This document shows, piece by piece, positions 2,005 to 61,935 of a stretch of DNA of 64,000 nucleotides (positions within the stretch are counted from its first letter, which is position 1; each line of letters starts with the position of its first letter). The DNA is from Eledone cirrhosa (Eukaryota), in NCBI GenBank assembly GCA_964016885.1, contig OZ024745.1, positions 63,550,001-63,614,000 on the forward strand. Reading direction: 5' to 3'. A model generated the notes under the pieces. That model did not search any database. It saw nothing but the letters and a program-made list of their open reading frames with translations, and was not told the DNA's origin. The position numbers were made by a program, and so were the translations under genes.

Positions 2005-2330
2005 TTTCTTTATTTCTTTCTTATATCTCATTCAGTTATTTCTTATATCTCATTCAGTTATTTTGCCTGAGAAAATATGTGTGTCATCAAACGTTGTACA
2101 CAGATATTTTTTCAAGTTCCAATTGAGTTCTAGCACGTGGCCTGAATTCCTTTTAGAGTTCATTGACATGCGTATGTATTGGCGGTAATTTATTTCCTAA
2201 TTTTTGAATCAGTTTGAGTATTTCTTTAGAACTGCTGAACTGGCAACCTAAGAGATACCTCAGGCACTGATGACGATTATCGCTAAATACTGATGTTGGT
2301 TAGATTATCAATATTAGTATTATTGGGGCA

Positions 2331-2457
2331 CCCACTGAAGAATTATAGGAGCCCACTTGAATATATATCTATTGATGGTATACAAGCTCCTACATAAATT
2401 GGTATAATTTCACCCCAATTGTAGGAATCCTATACTGAAACGATACGTCCGTCTGGG
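2331..2457 (+). ncRNA. Type I hammerhead ribozyme with expanded stem II
   Basis: CCCA-CTGAAGA-ATTATAGGA...(~77 nt)...TCCTATACT-GAAACG atacgtc CGTC-TGGG; intact core, 4 bp stem I, 3 bp stem III, GUC cleavage triplet; inside a (TA)n-flanked block ~2002-2630. Confidence 0.6.
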
Positions 2458-2647
2458 AAGAGATATATTCGATATGTCTCATATGAAATAATACAGCCAA
2501 TTTTCCACGCAATACATTTAGTTAGCACCCCGAACGCTTAATTAGGAATATACTCACTTATTTCCTAATGTTTGTTGAGTGAGTTGGAATTTGGCCGGAG
2601 TATCGCTAAAAAGCTTTCTCCGATAATGTATTTATATATATATATAT

Positions 2648-3327
2648 ATTTCATATAAGTAGGCCGAATTTACTTGCAAACCGCCAGAGATTCGATTTTA
2701 CTGATTTCCAATTATATTAATCTCCTAGATTTAATAATTAACCAATTAATTTAATTCGAAAATTCTGTTGATTGGTTAATTATTTGTGTTAGTTTTATAA
2801 CATCTAGTCGAGAGCTTATCATGATGATTAGCGGAAATTAAAATATTTCCTTTCGCTAGCATTTGAATTGACCCGCCAAAAACCGGGGGTTATTTCCCTT
2901 GCCGGAATTAACACGTCATAACTATAGATACGATTAGCAGCCATACGAGCAGCAACATATTTTATCACTCCTGGTTCTAAGCAGAACGAAAACCTGTTGA
3001 TAAACTGAGTCCTCTGTTCAGTCACCAATACCACGATCTTGCCATTCAAGTAAGTCTGATATTTGATTTCGGATTCAGAGAAACACTTTAAACGTATGCC
3101 CGTTTGATTTGTCCAGGTGTATTTTTCTCAACCTGATTAGTTCTATCGTTCCTTTGGTATATATTGTGTGTTAGTTTCGCCTACCACAATGTTCGATTTG
3201 TCAAGCTATTTAAACGTATGTTATAACTCTGAGACCTATCTTATCGAGTGCTTTGCTAACTCATCATTTCATATAAGTAGGCCGAATTTACTTGCAAACC
3301 GCCAGAGATTCGATTTTACTGATTTCC

Positions 3328-3335
<8 letters not shown>
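2648..3335 (+). mobile_element. (TA)n-flanked element with ~68 bp direct terminal repeats and a candidate 67 nt intron
   Basis: TTTCATATAAGTAGGCCGAATTTACTTGCAAACCGCCAGAGATTCGATTTTACTGATTTCCAATTATAT at ~2649 and ~3267; GTAAGT donor at 3050, TTTGATTTGTCCAG acceptor ending 3116. Confidence 0.7.
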
Positions 3336-3358
<23 letters not shown>

Positions 3359-3363
<5 letters not shown>

Positions 3364-4148
3364 ACAGGGAGAAAGAGACAATTATGAGGAAGAACAATTT
3401 TTTTTTTCATTTTTTTTTATGTGTCTCTCTCTCTCTTTTTTCTGGGTTAGAAAATGATTACAACGAAATGTTTTACTTTGTGTGAAGTGTTAAGGTATTA
3501 GTTGATTTATTTATTATTTAACAATGGCATTTATTTATCTATTTATATATTTAATTATTGTCTATTACCGGTTCTGCATTTATATGCATTATCAAATGAT
3601 AGTGTAGTGAATTTGTGTGGTGTCGCACATGTTAAACAGAAGGTGCAGAAAGAATAATGGTATATACAAACAAGGTTTAAGAAGTGAAGAGAAAAAAAGA
3701 AAAAGGAAAAAAACCGTGCATAATGTGGAACGTAAAAAGTCAATGTGGAAGAAAAGTTAATGTTATTTACAAGCAGTCATTGAAGTTAAGCAGTTCAAAA
3801 TGTGTTAATATCGCAAGAGTGTTTAGTTGAACCATGGTTCCGTGAAGGAGGCAAATGGTGGACTGTGATTTGATATGATTTCCCTTTTTAGAGAGTTAAT
3901 ATGCAGGGGAAGCAATTCTTGGTGGGTGATATTTAATTTATTTAAGAAAAAGGATTATGTAGGGTGTGAGGGAGAGCAAGAATTGCTTCCCCCTGCATAT
4001 TAACTGCACCTTAACACTTCACACAAAGTAAAACATTTCGTTTTAATCATTTTCTAACCCAGAAAAAAAACAGAAAAGAGAGAGAGAGACACAAAAAAAG
4101 GAAAAGAAATATTTTTCTTCCCCATAATCGTCTTTCTCCCTGTTTTCA
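3359..4148. mobile_element. (TA)n-embedded element with ~140 bp terminal inverted repeats (MITE-like or inverted Penelope-type end)
   Basis: 3359-3496 vs 4008-4148 reverse complement; internal IR AGTTAATATGCAGGGGAAGCAATTCTT (~3894-3920) vs ~3978-4005. Confidence 0.8.
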
Positions 4149-4197
4149 TATATATATATATATATATATCCTAACTCGTATGCCTCCTCTCCACATT

Positions 4198-4254
<57 letters not shown>

Positions 4255-4256
<2 letters not shown>

Positions 4257-4329
4257 ATAATAATAAATTTGAAGACTAAAATCCAAAGAGGGCTCGATAA
4301 GGATAAATAAACTTTAATCTGTTATTTTA

Positions 4330-4335
<6 letters not shown>
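4255..4335 (+). repeat. Short (TA)n-embedded dispersed repeat, copy 1 (others at ~9998-10148 and 63894-63970)
   Basis: AATTTGAAGACTAAAATCCAAAGAGGGCTCGATAAGGATAAATA is shared by three loci. Confidence 0.85.
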
Positions 4336-4423
<88 letters not shown>

Positions 4424-4431
4424 TATATTAT

Positions 4432-4525
<94 letters not shown>

Positions 4526-4690
4526 ATAATATATATATATTATATATATATTATATATATATATAATATATATATATTATATATATATTATAATATATAT
4601 ATATATTATATATATATTATATATATATATAATATATATATATATTATAATATATATATAATATATATATATATTATATATATAAATATA
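4335..4690. repeat. (TA)n microsatellite
   Basis: Direct inspection. Confidence 0.98.
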
Positions 4691-4741
4691 TAAAGGAGAG
4701 AGAAAGAGAGAAAAAGGGGAGAAAAAAGAGAGATAAAAGGA

Positions 4742-12114: not shown

Positions 12115-12592
<478 letters not shown>

Positions 12593-28366: not shown

Positions 28367-28448
28367 ATAACATTGAAGGATATGTTGGATAAGGTACCTA
28401 TTTGAGCTTTGCTTTCACCGTGTTCTCCCTCTCTCTCTCTCTCTCTCA

Positions 28449-28490
<42 letters not shown>

Positions 28491-28511
28491 TTGTGGTTAA
28501 TAAAGAAATCG

Positions 28512-28582
<71 letters not shown>

Positions 28583-28645
28583 GTGTGAGGGGACACGGAG
28601 AAAGCAAAGCTCAAACAGGTAACTTATCCAACATATCCTTCAATG

Positions 28646-28934: not shown

Positions 28935-29095
28935 TCAATGATATTAAATAAATGGAAACTATATTTATTCTATTATATATATTTCAAGGGTACCAAAACT
29001 TTGGTATACTCTCTTCAGATAAAATACAAAGTTGGTTTTATAAATATTGACATAACCAGGAATAGGCTCTTGACGGTTCAAGTTATTCCTGGATA
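28935..29095 (-). mobile_element. Hammerhead mini-element, copy B
   Basis: Reverse complement of the 12215-12373 monomer; hammerhead at 28967-29025 (CTGAAGA-GAGTATACCAA agtt TTGGTACCCTT-GAAA). Confidence 0.8.
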
Positions 29096-30309
29096 GTAAA
29101 GGAAAGAAGGGAAAGAGAAGAAAAGTCAAATGCTTCAAATTATTAAGATGAGTATGTAAATGAAGTTGAGGCATAGGGTTGAAACAACTTTATTTTTAGA
29201 CGCTAGGTAGATTTAAATAATTATTAATATATATGTATGTGTAGAAGAAAGAAAAAGAAAGAAAGAAGAAAGCAGTTATAAACATTTATATTTGTTGAAT
29301 TACCAACAAATTGCGTATATATATATATAAACATATATATATATTTATATAGCGCATCGCTACCTCACGTATGAGACAAGTAGAGCTTCTGCGAGAAAAG
29401 GCTACCAAACGTACAAACTTGTCTCAATATAGAATCTGTGAGCATTCGTAATTTAGATGATCTATACATTTATAAACGACCAACTAACACATTGAACACT
29501 ATTCTCGAAATCCAATGTCAGAATAAAAGAATTACCGAAATAAGCATTATCATAAGTGGACTATTTTTAAACATTATGATATAAAGTTCAATATGGCTGC
29601 TACTACTCATTTTATTAGCATCTTTATGTTTGGAAAGCAATTTAAACCCTACAACCCAGGGCCATTTGAATTCAACTCTGGAACGAAATTCTATTAGACG
29701 TGTGTTCCTTTTCCCTACCGTTTTGCTACACATTTCTAATTATTACTTTGTGACACGAGTAAATGTAATTATTCTATTTTATTTTGTAACATGCATTTAT
29801 GCAATGTGAACAGATAGGGGATTCGATTGCAATGTGAATATAAAGGGTATTTTATCGACCTTAGAATACAATGCAACTATTTTAAAAGCTATAATGCATG
29901 CTCGCCTGAAAATTGTTTCGGGCTAATAGATATAATGACCTTGCTCCAATTCCCAATTCTCTTTACTCCACCAACGCCTCAAATACAGCAAATCAGCGTT
30001 GTGGTCAATAAGCATTCACACGACGTCACTTGAATTTGGTCATGCGTAAAATATTTAGTTCTTAACGATTCCGTCTAATTTTCTGTGAATAGGTAATATG
30101 TGAAGTGCAGTTTGCAAGGGAACACGCTTGGCGTATTGTTTAGTGTCATTAATCTATAACTCTACTGAACTTGTATTGACCTCGATGGGATTTCAACACA
30201 AAGAATAGTGGGGAATGAAGACACATTTTGTAATTATTTCAGTCCAGTATTTTATTATTTCTAGCAAATTGTTTCTTCTACATACACTACTATTAGTAGC
30301 AATTTGAAA

Positions 30310-30520: not shown

Positions 30521-30552
<32 letters not shown>

Positions 30553-30571
30553 ATATATGGATATATATATA

Positions 30572-30617
<46 letters not shown>

Positions 30618-30619
<2 letters not shown>

Positions 30620-30887
30620 TATTATGTTGTTAAACAATATTCGATGATTATGTCAAAGAATGAGTTTTACAGTAGATTGGAACCACTCAACGGGAAATAA
30701 TTTTCAGGAGTTATTAATATTAAAATATAAGTATTACTACCTTGATTAAATCTTAACCATTTAACATCTCAGGGTATGTCATGTAACATTATATTTTGTC
30801 TGATGAGGACGTACTGTTGTACATCCGAAATATGTATAATAAAATGTAATTGATCAAAAGAACATCTATTTTATTAATACTTATATT

Positions 30888-30896
<9 letters not shown>
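30618..30896 (+). mobile_element. (TA)n-embedded hammerhead mini-element (related family)
   Basis: 22 bp IR TAATATTAAAATATAAGTATTA (30715-30736)/(30875-30896) enclosing the hammerhead. Confidence 0.75.
30793..30845 (+). ncRNA. Minimal type I hammerhead ribozyme, intact core
   Basis: ATTTTGT-CTGATGA-GGAcGTAC tgtt GTACaTCC-GAAA-TATGTA-TA-ATAAAAT. Confidence 0.85.
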
Positions 30897-30927
<31 letters not shown>

Positions 30928-30938
30928 ATGTGTGTGTG

Positions 30939-31021
<83 letters not shown>

Positions 31022-31056
31022 ATATGTATATATATATATGTATATTTATATATATG

Positions 31057-31090
<34 letters not shown>

Positions 31091-31109
31091 GTATACACAC
31101 ACACATATA

Positions 31110-31196
<87 letters not shown>

Positions 31197-31199
31197 GTG

Positions 31200-31246
<47 letters not shown>

Positions 31247-31380
31247 GTGTATATATATATATGTATATATATATATATGTATATATATATATGTATATAT
31301 ATATATGTATATATATATACTGTATATATATATATATACATATATATGTATATATATATACTGTATATATATATATATAC

Positions 31381-31415
<35 letters not shown>

Positions 31416-31455
31416 TGTATGTATGTATGTATGTATGTATGCACGTATATATATT
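30897..31455. repeat. (TA)n/(TATG)n microsatellite
   Basis: Direct inspection. Confidence 0.97.
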
Positions 31456-50062: not shown

Positions 50063-53000
50063 TTATATATATATTAAACGCACGCACACATAAATGTGTC
50101 TCTTAACGAGAATCCGTCCTCCACTCAAAATAAAAATATTTAGGGAAGGGTAAAATTCAGCAACAAGTGAGACTATAATCAGCAAGAGGGCGGTATAGGT
50201 GAGGAGTTGGTGGTTATGAGTGAAGCTGTAGAGGTGGTAGTGGAAGTGGTGAGGGGGCTTATGGTTGTGGTGGTGTAGTTGTGGTGTGGTAGAGGTGCTA
50301 GTGCTGCTTGTGATGGTGGCGTTTGTGGTGGTCGTGATGATGATGTTTATGGTGCTAGTGGTAGTACTTGCAGTTGTGAAGTTTGTAGTTGCTGCTGTTG
50401 TTAGAGGTAGTTGGTGGTGGTGGTGGTGGTGGTGGTGGTGGTGGTGGTGGTGGCACTGGTAGGGTTGATGGTAGTGGTGGTAGTGTGGTGTTACTGACGG
50501 TGGTGGTGGTGGTGGTGGTGGTGGTGGGTGTGGTGGTGGTGGTGTTGGCGGTGGTGGTTGTGGTGGTAGGATTGATGGTGGTGGTGGTAGTGTGGTGTTA
50601 CTGACGGTGGTGGTGGCGGCGGTGGTGGGTGTGGTGGTGGTGGTGTTGGTGGTGGTGGATGTGGTGGTAGGGTTGATGGTGGTGGTGGTGTTGGTGTTAC
50701 TGGCTGTTGTGTTGGCGGTGGTGGTTGTGGTGGTGGTTGTGGTGGTGGTGGTGGTGGTGACACTGGTAGGGTTGATGGTGGTGGTAGTGTTGGTGTTAGT
50801 GACGGTGGTGTTGGCGGTGGTGGTTGTGGTGGTGACGGTGGTGGTGGTGGTGGTGGTGGTGGTGTTGGTACTGGTAGGGTTGATGGTGGTGGTAGTGTTG
50901 GTGTTAGTGGCTGTTGTGTTGGCGGTGGTGGTTGTGGTGGTGACAGTGGTGGTGGTGGTGGTGGTGGTGATGGTGTTGGTGGTGGTGGTGGTGGTGATGG
51001 TGTTGGTGGTGGTGGTGGTGGTGGTGGTGGTGGTGGTGGTGGTAGGGTTGATGGTGGTGGTAGTGTTGGTGTTAGTGGCTGTTGTGTTGGCGGTGGTGGT
51101 TGTGGTGGTGACGGTGGTGGTGGTGGTGGTGGTGATGGTGTTGGTGGTGGTGGTGGTGTTGGTGATGGTGTTGGTGGTGGTGGTGGTGGTGGTGGTGGTG
51201 GTGGTGGTGGTGGTGGTAGGGTTGATGGTGGTGGTAGTGTTGGTGTTACTGACGGTGGTGTCGGTGGTGGTGGTGGTGGTAGTGGTGGTGTTGGTTATGG
51301 TGGTAGTGGTGGTGGTTGTGGTGGTAGTGTTGGTGATAGTGTCCGTGGTGTTGGTGGTGGTGGTGGTGGTGGTGGTGGTGGTGGTACTGGTGGTGGTTGT
51401 GGTGATTGTGTTGGTGATAGTGTCCGTGGTGTTGGCGGTGGTGATTGTGGTGGTGGTGGTGGTGGTGGTGGTGATGGTGGTACTGGTGGTGGTTGTGGTG
51501 GTTGTGTTGGTGATAGTGTCCGTGGTGTTGGCGGTGGTGATTGTGGTGGTGGTGGTGGTGGTGGTGGTGGTGGTGGTGGTGGTAGTAGTGGAGATACTGG
51601 TAGGGTTGATGGTAGTGGTAGTGTTCGTGATAGTGACTGTGGTATTGGTGCTGGACATAGTGGTGGTAGTGTTTGTGGTAGTCATTGTAGTGGTAGTGTT
51701 AGTGGTAGTGGCAGTGGTGGCAGTGGTGCTAATAGGGGTTGTGGTTGTGATGATAGTGTTAATGGTGGTGGTAGTGGTAGTGGCAGTGGTGGCAGTGGTG
51801 TCCATAGTGGTTGTGGTTGTGATGATAGTGGTAATGTTGGTGGTAGTGTTTGTGGTAGTGATTGTAGTGGTAGTGGTAGTGGTAGTGGTAGTGGCAGTGG
51901 TGTCCATAGTGGTTGTGGTTGTGATGATAGTGGTAATGTTGGTGGTAGTGTTTGTGGTAGTCATTGTAGTGGTAGTGGTAGTGGTGGTGGTAGTGGTAGT
52001 AGTGGCAGTGGTGTCCATAGTGGTTGTGGTTGTGATGATAGTGGTAATGTTGGTGGTAGTGTTTTTGGTAGCCATTGTAGTGGTAGTGGTAGTGGTAGTG
52101 GTAGTGGTGGTGGTAGTGGTGGTGGTAGTGGTGTCCATAGTGGTTGTGGTTGTGATGATAGCGGTAATGTTGGTGGTAGTGTTTGTGGTAGTGATTGTAG
52201 TGGTAGTGGTAGTGGTAGTGGTAGTGGTAGTGGTAGTGGTAGTGGCAGTGGTGTCCATAGTGGTTGTGGTTGTGATGATAGTGGTAATGTTGGTGGTAGT
52301 GTTTTTGGTAGTGATTGTAGTGGTAGTGGTAGTGGTAGTGGTGTCCATAGTTGCTGTGGTTGTGATGATAGTGGTAATGTTGGTGGTAGTGTTTGTGGTA
52401 GTCATTGTAGTGGTAGTGGTAGTGGTAGTGGTGGTAGTGGTGTCCATAGTGGTTGTGGTTGTGATGATAGTGGTAATGTTGGCGGTAGTGTTTTTGGTAG
52501 CCATTGTAGTGGTAGTGGTAGTGGTAGTGGTGGTAGTGGTGTCCATAGTGGTTGTGGTTGTGATGATAGTGGTAATGTTGGCGGTAGTGTTTTTGGTAGC
52601 CATTGTAGTGGTAGTGGTAGTGGTAGTGGTAGTGGTGGTGGTAGTGGTGTCCATAGTGGTTGTGGTTGTGATGATAGTGGTAATGTTGGTGGTAGTGTTT
52701 GTGGTAGTGATTGTAGTGGTAGTGGTAGTGGTAGTGGTAGTGGTAGTGGTGGCAGTGGTGTCCATAGTGGTTGTGGTTGTTATGATAGTGGTAATGTTGG
52801 TGGTAGTGTTTGTGGTAGTGATTGTAGTGGTAGTGGTAGTGGTAGTGGTAGTGGCAGTGGTGTCCATAGTGGTTGTGGTTGTTATGATAGTGGTAATGTT
52901 GGTGGTAGTGTTTGTGGTAGTGATTGTAGTGGTAGTGGTAGTGGTAGTGGTAGTGGCAGTGGTGTCCATAGTGGTTGTGGTTGTTATGATAGTGGTAATG

Positions 53001-53413
53001 TTGGTGGTAGTGTTTGTGGTAGTGATTGTAGTGGTAGTGGTAGTGGTAGTGGTAGTGGTAGTGGTGTCCATAGTGGTTGTGGTTGTTATGATAGTGGTAA
53101 TGTTGGTGGTAGTGTTTGTGGTAGTCATTGTAGTGGTAGTGGTAGTGGTAGTCATTGTAGTGGTAGTGGTAGTGGTAGTGGTGTCCATAGTTGCTGTGGT
53201 TGTGATGATAGTGGTAATGCTGGTGGTAGTGTTTGTGGTAGCCATTGTAGTAGTAGTGGTAGTGGTGGTGGTAGTGGTAGTAGTGGCAGTGGTGTCCATA
53301 GTGGTTGTGGTTGTGATGATAGTGGTAATGCTGGTGGTAGTGTTTGTGGTAGTCATTGTAGTGGTAGTGGTAGTGGTAGTGGTAGTGGTAGTGGCAGTGG
53401 TAGTGGTGTCCAT
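50063..53413 (-). CDS. Thr-rich mucin-like ORF (coding status uncertain)
   Basis: 1116-codon ORF of [24 protein letters not shown] units ending in a hydrophobic segment ([18 protein letters not shown]); could equally be a non-coding trinucleotide satellite. Confidence 0.35.
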
Positions 53414-55145
53414 AGTTGCTGTGGTTGTGATGGTAGTGGTAATGTTGGTGGTAGTGTTGTGGTAGTCATTGTAGTGGTAGTGGTAGTGGTAGTGGTGTCC
53501 ATAGTTGCTGTGGTTGTGATGATAGTGGTAGTGTTGGTGGTAGTGTTTGTGGTAGTCATTGTAGTGGTAGTGGTAGTGGTGGTGGTAGTGGTAGTAGTGG
53601 CAGTGGTGTCCATAGTTGCTGTGGTTGTGATGATAGTGGTAATGTTGGTGGTAGTGTTTGTGGTAGTCATTGTAGTGGTAGTGGTAGTGGTAGTGGTAGT
53701 GGTAGTGGTAGTGGTGTCCATTGTGGTTGTGGTTGTGATGATAGTGGTAATGCTGGCGATACTAATGGTGGAGGTATGGTGGAGTTGTTGCCGCTGGTGG
53801 CTGGAACTGTCACTGTTTAGGTTATGGTGATGATGGAGGTGAAGTTGCTGTTGGTGTTGGTAGTGATAACTGATTTGGCTGAGATGGTAGTGGTAGTGAT
53901 GATGGTGATGGAAGTGTTGGTGGTGGTGGTGGTGGTGGTGGTATTGATGATGGTGATGGAACTGTTGGTGGTGGAGATAGGGGTGGTGGTTGTCGTGGTG
54001 ATGGTGGAGGTGGTGGTTGTGGTGGTGGTGGTGGTGGTATTGATGATGGTGATGGAACTGTTGGTGGTGGAGATAGGGGATGGAGGTGGTGGTGGTGGTG
54101 GTGGTGGTGGTGGAAGTGTTGGTGGTGGTGGTGGTGGTATTGATGATGGTGATGGAACTGTTGGTGGTGGAGATAGGGGGGTGGAGGTGGTGGTGGTGGT
54201 GGTGGTGGTGGTGGAACTGTTGGTGGTGGTGGTGGTGTTATTGATGATGGTGATGGAACTGTTGGTGGTGGTGGTGGTGGTATTGATTATGGTGATGGAA
54301 CTGTTGGTGGTGGAGGTGGGGGTGGGGTGGGGAACTGTTGGTGGTGGTGGTGGTGGTGGTATTGATGATGGTGATGGAACTGTTGGTGTTGGAGATAGGG
54401 GTGGTGGTTGTCGTGGTGATGGTGGAGGTGGTGGTGGTGGTGGTGGTGGTGGTGGTGGTGGAACTGTTGGTGGTGGAGATAGGGGTGGTGGAGGTGGTGG
54501 TGGTGGTGGAACTGTTGGTGGTGGAGATAGGGGTAGTGGTTGTCGTGGTGGTGGTGGTGGTGGTGGTGGTGGAAGTGTTGGTGGTGGAGATAGTGGTAGT
54601 GGTGGTGGTGGTGGTGGTAGTAGTGGTGGTAGTAGTGGTGGTAGTGGGGGATAGTGGTTGTGGCGGTGGTGGTGATGGTGGTAGTAGTGGTGGTGAGGTT
54701 TGCGGTTGGAGGTGGGGTGATGATTATGTTGGGGGAATGTGCTGAGGGTGGTCGGCATGGGGGGGGAGGTGTTGATGGTGGTAATGATGATGATGAAGTG
54801 TGAGGTGATTTGTAGGTGTGGCGTTCGTCAATGCTGTACTAGTGGATAGAAAGTGGTGGTTGTGGTGAAGTGCTGTATTTGTGGTGTGGTGGTGGTGGTG
54901 ACGGTCTTAGTGAGCGTGAGGTAGCGGTAATAGTAGTGGTCTAGTTAATGGTAGTGACAGTGGAATAGGGCGTGGGGTTGCTTGGGTAGAAATTTGATTG
55001 TGGCAGCGGTGGTGCTAGTGGTGGTGCTAATGGTTGTGGCGGCGTTGGTGTTGGTGAAATTGTTTAGGGTGGTGGTGATTGAGGGGGCTTTGTTGATATT
55101 AGTCTTGGTGGTGAGGGTGGTGACACGGTGGTATTGGTGGTGCAA
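50200..55145. repeat. (GGT/AGT)n low-complexity block with a higher-order array of 19 units (89-120 bp) at ~51790-53750
   Basis: GTGTCCAT marker counted 19 times; all spacings are multiples of 3 except one of 89 bp. Confidence 0.95.
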
Positions 55146-61347: not shown

Positions 61348-61564
61348 ATATTTAATGTATAATAAACAACACAGTATAATTACCTAATTACCCGAGGTTT
61401 CCTGAACAGGACGAACACAAGAGACGTCCGCATTCGTTAGTCAGATAAGGCAAACTGATTGTCTTATCTGACGAACGTATGCGGACGTCTCTTTGGTTCG
61501 TCCTGTTCAGGAAACCTCGGGTAATTAGGTAATTATACTGTGTTGTTTATTATACATTAAATAT
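61348..61564. repeat. ~215 bp palindrome whose arms each carry a mutated hammerhead
   Basis: Arms 61348-61452 and ~61459-61564; CTGAACA-GGACG...CGTCC-GCAT(A)CGTT.GTC in both arms. Confidence 0.9.
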
Positions 61565-61708: not shown

Positions 61709-61762
<54 letters not shown>

Positions 61763-61766
<4 letters not shown>

Positions 61767-61935
61767 ATGATATTAATAAAAGGAAACTGTATTTATAAAA
61801 CAATATTTATTCTATTATATATATTTCAAGAATACCAAAATGTTGGTACGACTCATCAGATAAAATACAAAGTTTGTTTTATAAATATTGACATATCCAG
61901 AAAGGCGATATTAACGGTTCAAGTTTTTCCTGGAT
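61763..61935 (-). mobile_element. Hammerhead mini-element, copy C (single clean monomer between (TA)n)
   Basis: Hammerhead at 61809-61866: CTGATGA-GTCGTACCAA catt TTGGTATTCTT-GAAA-TATATATA-ATAGAAT. Confidence 0.8.

What the first reader, a model, noticed from the sequence alone, without database searches (positions are those of the whole stretch)
30618..30896. Second hammerhead mini-element: same core and stems I/III, different stem II
ATTTTGT-CTGATGA-GGAcGTAC/GTACaTCC-GAAA-TATGTATA-ATAAAAT keeps the core, stem I and stem III of the 12268 family but has a different, still-paired stem II. Structure is therefore conserved despite sequence change. The architecture is also shared: a 22 bp inverted repeat brackets the ribozyme and (TA)n lies on both sides. 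This is the best candidate for an active ribozyme in the window.
Basis: partly seen in the sequence, partly recalled or inferred. Interest (0 to 1): 0.75.

Follow-up and report, generated by a model that had tools for sequence, protein, structure and literature searches.

The report
Stub of a Hydra-clade Penelope retrotransposon
This is not a separate mini-element but two cut-short ends of a known kind of jumping gene joined head-to-head in a TA repeat; its hammerhead is predicted to cut only as a pair, and its sister copies mostly stop at one fixed point, likely the RNA's start, and almost never at the ribozyme's cut site.

Summary
The motif, the 22-bp inverted repeat and the (TA)n flanks are real. 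The "mini-element" is one insertion of an abundant Hydra-clade Penelope-like retrotransposon (PLE): a 159-nt sense arm with a minimal type I hammerhead, joined head-to-head to an inverted arm made of 22 nt of the same end plus a ~96-nt tail. The same sequence sits in both pseudo-LTRs of an RT + GIY-YIG element. The 12268 family is a sister PLE family. The junction differs in 30 of 30 copies, so the unit does not move as one piece. Monomeric stem III is unstable (P=0.0007) but self-complementary across 17 motif clusters, the published dimer design; a monomer assay would likely fail. Added here: about a third of arms reaching window 30736 stop exactly there (713 of 2195), against 42 of 2720 at the cut site. 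So the copied RNA was uncut, and that point may be the transcription start (cap evidence mixed). No RNA data. This scan already noted Hydra-clade stubs and tail hairpins on other DNA of this genome.

The parts
30521..30617 (.). Left (TA)n target tract
   Evidence: TRF
30620..30714 (-). ~96-nt 'tail' of the element, inverted; in the parent it follows the pLTR end and precedes the ORF
   Evidence: 628 genome matches with pLTR end and tail colinear, control 0; L091 layout; inverted arm 89.7% to L091
30715..30736 (-).
30736..30894 (+). Sense arm: from the family's fixed 5' boundary (103 nt before the predicted cut) to the tail-less 3' end
   Evidence: 96-97% to both pLTRs of L091; boundary counts
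30788..30850 (+). Minimal type I hammerhead: stem I, core 30800-30806, stem II 30807-30826, GAAA 30827-30830, predicted cut between 30838 and 30839
30830..30837 (+). Self-complementary 8-mer stem III/loop (two central U-G pairs), predicted to pair between two molecules
30891..31440 (.). Right (TA)n target tract
   Evidence: TRF
12168..12459 (+). Sister-family (B) insertion: tailed sense arm 12214-12459 with hammerhead, plus 41-nt inverted tail-less arm 12168-12208
   Evidence: family tied to a PLE ORF
28935..29312 (-). Family B insertion: tail-less arm 28935-29265 (-) with hammerhead, plus inverted tail fragment 29270-29312 (+)
61756..61934 (-). Family B single tail-less arm between (TA)n tracts

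Best explanation
The locus is a short insertion of a Hydra-clade Penelope-like retrotransposon, made of two 5'-truncated copies of the element's end joined head-to-head inside (TA)n, and its hammerhead is the element's minimal type I motif, predicted to cut only as a dimer. Shown: both arms match the pseudo-LTR and tail of an RT + GIY-YIG element; arms end at two fixed 3' points about 96 nt apart; inverted pairs join one tailed and one tail-less arm; the junction is unique to each copy; arms run through the ribozyme cut site and pile up 103 nt upstream of it. Inferred: the endonuclease nicks both strands of (TA)n; reverse transcription starts internally at two sites on uncut element RNA, one per strand; the two cDNAs are joined at their far ends by microhomology or end-joining; the sense arm here ran to the RNA's 5' end, likely the transcription start. 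The ribozyme would act, if at all, when two pLTRs pair through stem III. This stub has one sense hammerhead and lacks the upstream TATA-like motif, so it is likely an inert passenger.
For: Parent: L091 reads pLTR, tail, ORF (three natural frames, 2433-4732), ~2-kb 3' UTR, pLTR, tail; EN-UTR-hammerhead colinear in L092, L093, L095, L096, L098, L099, L105-L107 (output partly cut). Protein motifs RLRWR, SDKT, YRDD, CxCx5C, VY..YIG, CxxC, CxH match the Hydra clade text (PMC8557442 section 11). Atlas hits 0.95 to RT / GIY-YIG clusters. Two 3' ends: 628 tailed matches, 790 forward-strand tail-less matches (reverse count inflated by overlaps); contig ends in runs X1-X4 run into (TA)n at the same two places (one study, kind unknown). 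Pairing: 32 of 49 anchored arms have an inverted partner and 31 of those 32 pair tail with no tail (5 loci counted from both sides). Junction: 30 distinct strings in 30 copies. Dimer design: monomer stem III P=0.0007; 43 of 45 inner stem III positions self-complementary over 17 clusters, 0 of 20000 shuffles; 20 of 22 over 9 distinct strings, 2 of 20000. Uncut template: non-template base before the cut site in 42 of 2720 matches, only about 6 of 30 viewed being truncations; before the -103 point in 713 of 2195, 95 of 100 viewed being true ends. Two-site internal priming, both-strand cutting and use of uncut RNA were shown in vitro for another PLE (PMC11167929, parts 1-2 read).
Against: No cleavage or expression data for this family. 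Pfam named no RT or GIY-YIG domain in six family-A ORF pieces, PDB gave nothing, Rfam gave no hammerhead match. No copy with an unbroken ORF was seen among the 17 regions fetched (output partly cut). The element (~4.9 kb), its tail (~96 nt) and the RWR motif depart from the published <3 kb, 30-40 bp and RWK. No tree against published Hydra RTs was built. The cap signature for the 5' boundary failed one of two controls.
Confidence: 0.9

Rival explanations
1. The 279-bp unit is an independent non-autonomous mini-element (MITE-like or retrozyme-like) that moves as one piece and uses its hammerhead as a monomer.
For: The 40 best BLAST places mostly cover the whole unit at 89-100% with (TA)n flanks, out of 1546 candidates.
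Against: Those hits are chosen for full coverage. The arm junction is different in 30 of 30 copies; other loci carry the reverse polarity or far longer arms; the sequence is the pLTR of a coding element; monomer stem III P=0.0007. No head-to-tail array of the unit was seen in the loci mapped.
Confidence: 0.04
2. The fixed 5' boundary is not a transcription start but a strong reverse-transcriptase stop, a second RNA processing site, or a preferred annealing point of the two cDNAs; everything else in the best explanation stands.
For: G fraction before the boundary (25 of 68) equals that at ordinary truncations with a template C (12 of 35), p=0.83. T is the commonest base there (55 of 100). Family B has a pyrimidine tract and no TATA at -30. 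A near-palindrome just inside the boundary collects further junctions.
Against: G:A is 25:4 at the boundary versus 22:30 in the control, p=1e-4. 21 of 40 junctions with untemplated letters end in G, 2 in A (rough automatic classes). Single arms joined directly to (TA)n stop at the same base, so a partner arm is not needed. TATA-like motif at -31/-30: 40 hits in 58 related upstream sequences.
Confidence: 0.4
3. The hammerhead is a non-functional relic carried along with the pLTR.
For: Copies almost never end at the cut site. Published minimal PLE hammerheads cleave weakly in vitro (PMC4209133) and were dispensable for insertion in vitro (PMC11167929).
Against: Core, stems and the stem III palindrome are kept with compensating changes across 17 clusters whose other sequence has diverged; families A and B align at only 153 of 267 columns over pLTR and tail yet keep the core.
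Confidence: 0.12

Closest known systems
Hydra clade of C-terminal EN+ PLEs (Craig et al. 2021, PMC8557442; passages, sections 11 and 15, supplement part 2 read), including Hydra-1_Obim
   Same: RT then GIY-YIG, DKT, CxCx5C linker, CxxC and CxH, no CCHH, (TA)n targets, hammerhead near the 3' end, inverted 5'-truncated copy, one-sided tail.
   Different: RWR for RWK; about 4.9 kb with a 2-kb 3' UTR; tail ~96 nt rather than 30-40 bp; hammerhead sequence differs from Hydra-1_Obim and two words of it are absent from the supplement. A fixed 5' end of short copies is not mentioned in the parts read.
Minimal type I hammerheads of metazoan PLEs (Cervera and de la Pena 2014, PMC4209133; parts 1-2 read)
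   Same: Long stem II (7 bp), G10.1-C11.1, 2-bp palindromic stem III, mostly solitary copies from truncated PLEs, opposite-strand pairs 100-700 bp apart.
   Different: Stem I is longer here (12 bp predicted); no unpaired base before stem II; this family is untested.
PAc, Poseidon PLE of Anolis carolinensis (Frangieh et al. 2024, PMC11167929; parts 1-2 read)
   Same: Two internal start sites delimiting the tail, both target strands used, uncut RNA as template.
   Different: Other clade; its tail lies inside the ORF, here it lies just before the ORF; strict tail/no-tail pairing and a fixed 5' end are not reported in the parts read.
Metazoan non-LTR retrozymes (Cervera and de la Pena 2020, PMC7229834; passages read; Li et al. 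2026 preprint 10.64898/2026.07.22.740005, part 1 read)
   Same: Short, AT-rich, type I hammerhead, linked to PLEs.
   Different: Retrozymes are head-to-tail arrays with a hammerhead in each unit; this locus is one head-to-head pair with a single sense hammerhead.

Membership tests
Hydra-clade PLE | Single ORF with RT followed by C-terminal GIY-YIG endonuclease | tested here: met
   YRDD then VY..YIG in natural ORFs of L091, L094, L095; Atlas 0.95 to RT/GIY-YIG clusters; Pfam silent
Hydra-clade PLE | DKG modified to DKT | tested here: met
   SDKT in L044, L071, L091, L096, L099, L107
Hydra-clade PLE | CxCx5C linker; CxxC and CxH around the EN E and N residues; CCHH absent | tested here: met
   CNCRNKTDC, CALC..E, CPH; one C between the GIY and YIG halves
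Hydra-clade PLE | N-terminal RWK motif | tested here: inconclusive
   Conservative variant RWR in families A and B
Hydra-clade PLE | (TA)n insertion, pLTR hammerhead, inverted truncated copy, one-sided tail | tested here: met
Hydra-clade PLE | RT phylogeny with published Hydra families | not tested
   No reference proteins were available to the tools
Minimal type I PLE hammerhead | CUGANGA and GAAA core, stems I and II, NUH site | tested here: met
   AUA triplet
Minimal type I PLE hammerhead | Very short, palindromic stem III | tested here: met
Minimal type I PLE hammerhead | Self-cleavage as a dimer | not testable with these tools
   Needs an in vitro assay
Rfam hammerhead families | Covariance-model match | tested here: not met
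   0 matches at E<=10 on 30620-30895
Non-LTR retrozyme | Head-to-tail repeats with a hammerhead in consecutive units | tested here: not met
   One sense hammerhead, head-to-head arms
Independent inverted-repeat mini-element | Fixed internal structure shared by copies | tested here: not met
   30 distinct junctions in 30 copies

The most novel reading that the evidence does not exclude
The stubs are 'strong-stop' cDNAs: reverse transcription primed at two internal sites in the 5' pLTR runs to the capped 5' end of uncut RNA, with one cDNA from each site per insertion. Thousands of fossil copies would then map the transcription start of each Hydra family and show in vivo that the conserved dimer hammerhead does not trim the template before copying, which pushes its role to another step (3'-end formation, circularisation or turning off spent RNA).
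Probability: 0.5. Interest if true: 0.55.

Novelty: new member of a known kind. Interest (0 to 1): 0.3.

Why it matters
The locus itself is ordinary: one of thousands of stubs of a described retrotransposon clade whose hammerheads are catalogued. It matters as a correction (test it as a dimer, not a monomer) and because the family's copy ends give countable in vivo evidence on two questions that PMC8557442 calls open: what the PLE hammerhead does and how inverted structures form. Copies read through the cut site, pair tailed with tail-less ends almost without exception, and stop at one 5' base. If that base is the capped start, PLE promoters and templates can be mapped from genome sequence alone.

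Tried and rejected
Rfam: whole-window scan returned microsatellite noise in the 150 rows shown of 380; 0 matches on the locus. Pfam and PDB sequence searches did not name the family-A ORF. First guess of the Neptune clade was dropped after reading the Hydra definition. Truncation at the ribozyme cut site was tested and not found. Cap-derived G: supported by G:A but not by G fraction against ordinary truncations, and the control is itself confounded because partner arms often end in a G-rich boundary sequence. Sequencing runs: no RNA holder listed; four contig sets of unknown kind from one study gave no information on expression. The dimer paper of Lunse et al. (PMC5785218) is not held; it is known here only from its title and the summary in PMC6765202. 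Searches for prior print: 'octopus, Penelope, Neptune', 'Penelope-like, Hydra clade, hammerhead', 'octopus, hammerhead ribozyme' returned only Craig 2021 as relevant; 'Penelope-like, non-templated, cap structure, truncated' returned 0; 'Penelope-like elements, tail, inverted, template switch' returned 2 unrelated listings. Repbase/Dfam and subscription papers were not searchable, and 58 of 59 parts of the Craig supplement were only word-searched, so the family or the fixed 5' end may be described there.

Full report
Observation. The motif is there as described. On the + strand: CTGATGA 30800-30806, stem II 30807-30826 (3 bp closed by G10.1-C11.1, one C/A mismatch, 4 bp, 4-nt loop), GAAA 30827-30830, an 8-nt stem III/loop 30830-30837, N17 = A30838, and a predicted 12-bp stem I. 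The core pattern occurs at 4 sites in the window (7 matches against 0.85 expected). The inverted repeat is 22 nt perfect and (TA)n lies on both sides. The 71-mer folds at z = -2.0, the best of the four window copies. Rfam finds nothing on the locus at E<=10.

The unit is a repeat, but not a fixed one. The window lies in a 3.0-Gb genome; earlier notes of the scan call it octopus-type, which I did not test. The 279-bp query gave 1546 candidates, of which 40 were scored and most cover the whole unit. An exact 33-nt core-stem II pattern matches 1697 times, control 0. In 30 copies both outer ends are shared and flanked by (TA)n, but the middle junction is different in all 30 and spans 17-44 nt. The left 117 nt are an inverted copy of the element's own 3' end plus a continuation: the pLTR end followed directly by that continuation occurs 628 times on one strand, control 0. 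So the locus is two arms head-to-head: a sense arm 30736-30894 ending at the near 3' end (+55 from the cut site), and an inverted arm 30736-30620 ending at the far 3' end (+151), 96 nt further on.

The parent. Longer copies extend more than 1.5 kb upstream, and one carries a GIY-YIG fragment. Searching with it gave 150 scored matches at 82-100% identity. In 17 regions fetched around such matches, L091 reads pLTR with hammerhead, tail, ORF in three natural frames (2433-4732), about 2 kb of 3' UTR, pLTR with hammerhead, tail; endonuclease, UTR and hammerhead are colinear in nine further regions visible in the cut output. The finding's sense arm is 96-97% identical to both pLTRs of L091 and the inverted arm 90%. 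The protein shows RLRWR, SDKT, YRDD, a CxCx5C linker, VY..YIG, CxxC and CxH, and lacks CCHH. That is the text definition of the Hydra clade of PLEs, which also lists (TA)n targeting and hammerheads (PMC8557442 section 11); its supplement lists Hydra-1_Obim with a different hammerhead. Pfam and PDB did not name the ORF; the Atlas placed it at 0.95 with RT and GIY-YIG clusters. I built no tree. The 12268 family is a sister family: its tail also runs into an ORF start, and its pieces are 43-57% identical to family A over the main matches. pLTR and tail of the two families align at 153 of 267 columns. That is why they share core, stems and layout.

How the insertion forms. Of 49 anchored arms (44 loci), 32 have an inverted partner within the 3-kb locus and 31 of these pair a tailed with a tail-less end. 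Inverted truncated copies and one-sided tails are described for PLEs (PMC8557442). For a Poseidon PLE, two internal priming sites that delimit the tail, cutting and extension of both strands, and use of uncut RNA were shown in vitro (PMC11167929). I infer the same here: one cDNA per target strand, one from each site, joined at their far ends (1-nt microhomology at 30736 in this copy).

The ribozyme. As a monomer the active fold costs 4.4 kcal/mol over the best fold and the stem III pairs have probability 0.0007. A motif search of all loci then held required stems I and II and A15.1-U16.1 but no palindrome; it gave 129 variants in 17 clusters. Their stem III strings are self-complementary at 43 of 45 inner positions (0 of 20000 shuffles), or 20 of 22 over the 9 distinct strings (2 of 20000). 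The clusters are related, so this is not 17 independent cases, but the strings change while staying palindromic. This is the published dimer design; a single minimal PLE hammerhead showed no cleavage and dimers weak cleavage (PMC4209133). This locus has one sense hammerhead only.

Where arms stop. Among the 49 arms, 20 read past -110, 16 stop at -109 to -92, 13 are scattered from -91 to -6, and none stop at the cut site. Genome-wide, a non-template base precedes the 17-mer starting at -103 in 713 of 2195 matches, and 95 of the first 100 are true ends (one more looks like a substitution by eye). At the cut site the figure is 42 of 2720, and about 6 of 30 viewed are truncations; ends preceded by a chance A are missed by this count. 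So the templates of these copies were uncut. Family B has a like boundary 124 nt before its cut. The finding's sense arm starts exactly at the family A boundary.

What the boundary is. For a transcription start: it reads pyrimidine-A in read-through copies of both families; a TATA-like motif sits at -31/-30 (40 hits in 58 related sequences, background 60 per 2048 nt); Penelope transcripts start inside the upstream pLTR (PMC2377424 passages); the base before is G 39, T 55, A 6 of 100, and 21 of 40 junctions with untemplated letters end in G against 2 in A. An extra G marks capped full-length L1 insertions (PMC11702581 passage). Against: the G fraction equals that at ordinary truncations (25 of 68 versus 12 of 35, p=0.83), though G:A differs (25:4 versus 22:30, p=1e-4), and the control is confounded; family B lacks the TATA motif; Drosophila Penelope uses a TATA-less internal promoter. 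I put the start-site reading at about 0.55-0.6. There are no RNA data.

Earlier scan notes. I reached the Hydra reading; notes seen report the same for other loci of this genome and add twin tail hairpins. I checked these in part: an ACTC...GAGT-type stem folds at the tail start in 4 of 8 family representatives, not in the two family A representatives or in the finding's own tail, and a similar stem follows the far end in L091, L096 and L110. None of the 16 notes shown mentions a fixed 5' end.

Verdict. Real motif, known kind of element, new family member; the locus is a stub. The useful additions are the dimer caveat, the strict tail pairing and the fixed 5' boundary with read-through of the cut site. 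Interest 0.3.

Noticed in passing
window 50412-54695: A 4.3-kb array of 6-nt units (about 713 copies, 67% match) with stop-free frames over 1000 aa on both strands: Thr-rich and mucin-like on minus (50063-53761), Gly-rich on plus. Coding status not tested.
   Followed up: no
L220:1918-1963 and 2162-2207 (+): Two near-identical type I hammerheads 244 nt apart in the same orientation, a possible retrozyme-type tandem.
   Followed up: no
L093:6176-7828 (-); L097:5826-7499 (+): Two other PLE ORFs of about 550 aa beside family A copies: one with the CxCx5C linker (Hydra-like, 38-48% to family A pieces), one with a Cx4CxxC linker and a weak RVT_1 hit.
   Followed up: no
L012, L099, L157, L029, L094, L240 and others: At least four more hammerhead-bearing families with two 3' ends, tails of 85-100 nt and, in the few copies seen, apparent fixed 5' ends at a pyrimidine-A step. 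Small samples.
   Followed up: partly
window 12155-12166 and 12469-12480: A 12-nt direct repeat flanks the family B insertion, a candidate target-site duplication.
   Followed up: no
window 30773-30780 and L091:~2430: A possible splice donor about 38 nt after the 5' boundary and a possible acceptor just before the ORF start, which would put hammerhead and tail in a 5' UTR intron; the donor is not kept in family B. By eye only.
   Followed up: no
L198-L247 upstream of the family B boundary: Read-through copies carry an octamer-like motif about 65 nt upstream and a long pyrimidine tract right before the boundary (motif name recalled).
   Followed up: no
window 61400-61512 and 28391-28625: Two long fold-back sequences, the second wrapped around CT/TA/AG microsatellites.
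   Followed up: no
L201-L203 (C1:111.93-111.95 Mb): Three near-identical family B insertions about 5 kb apart, likely a local tandem duplication.
   Followed up: no
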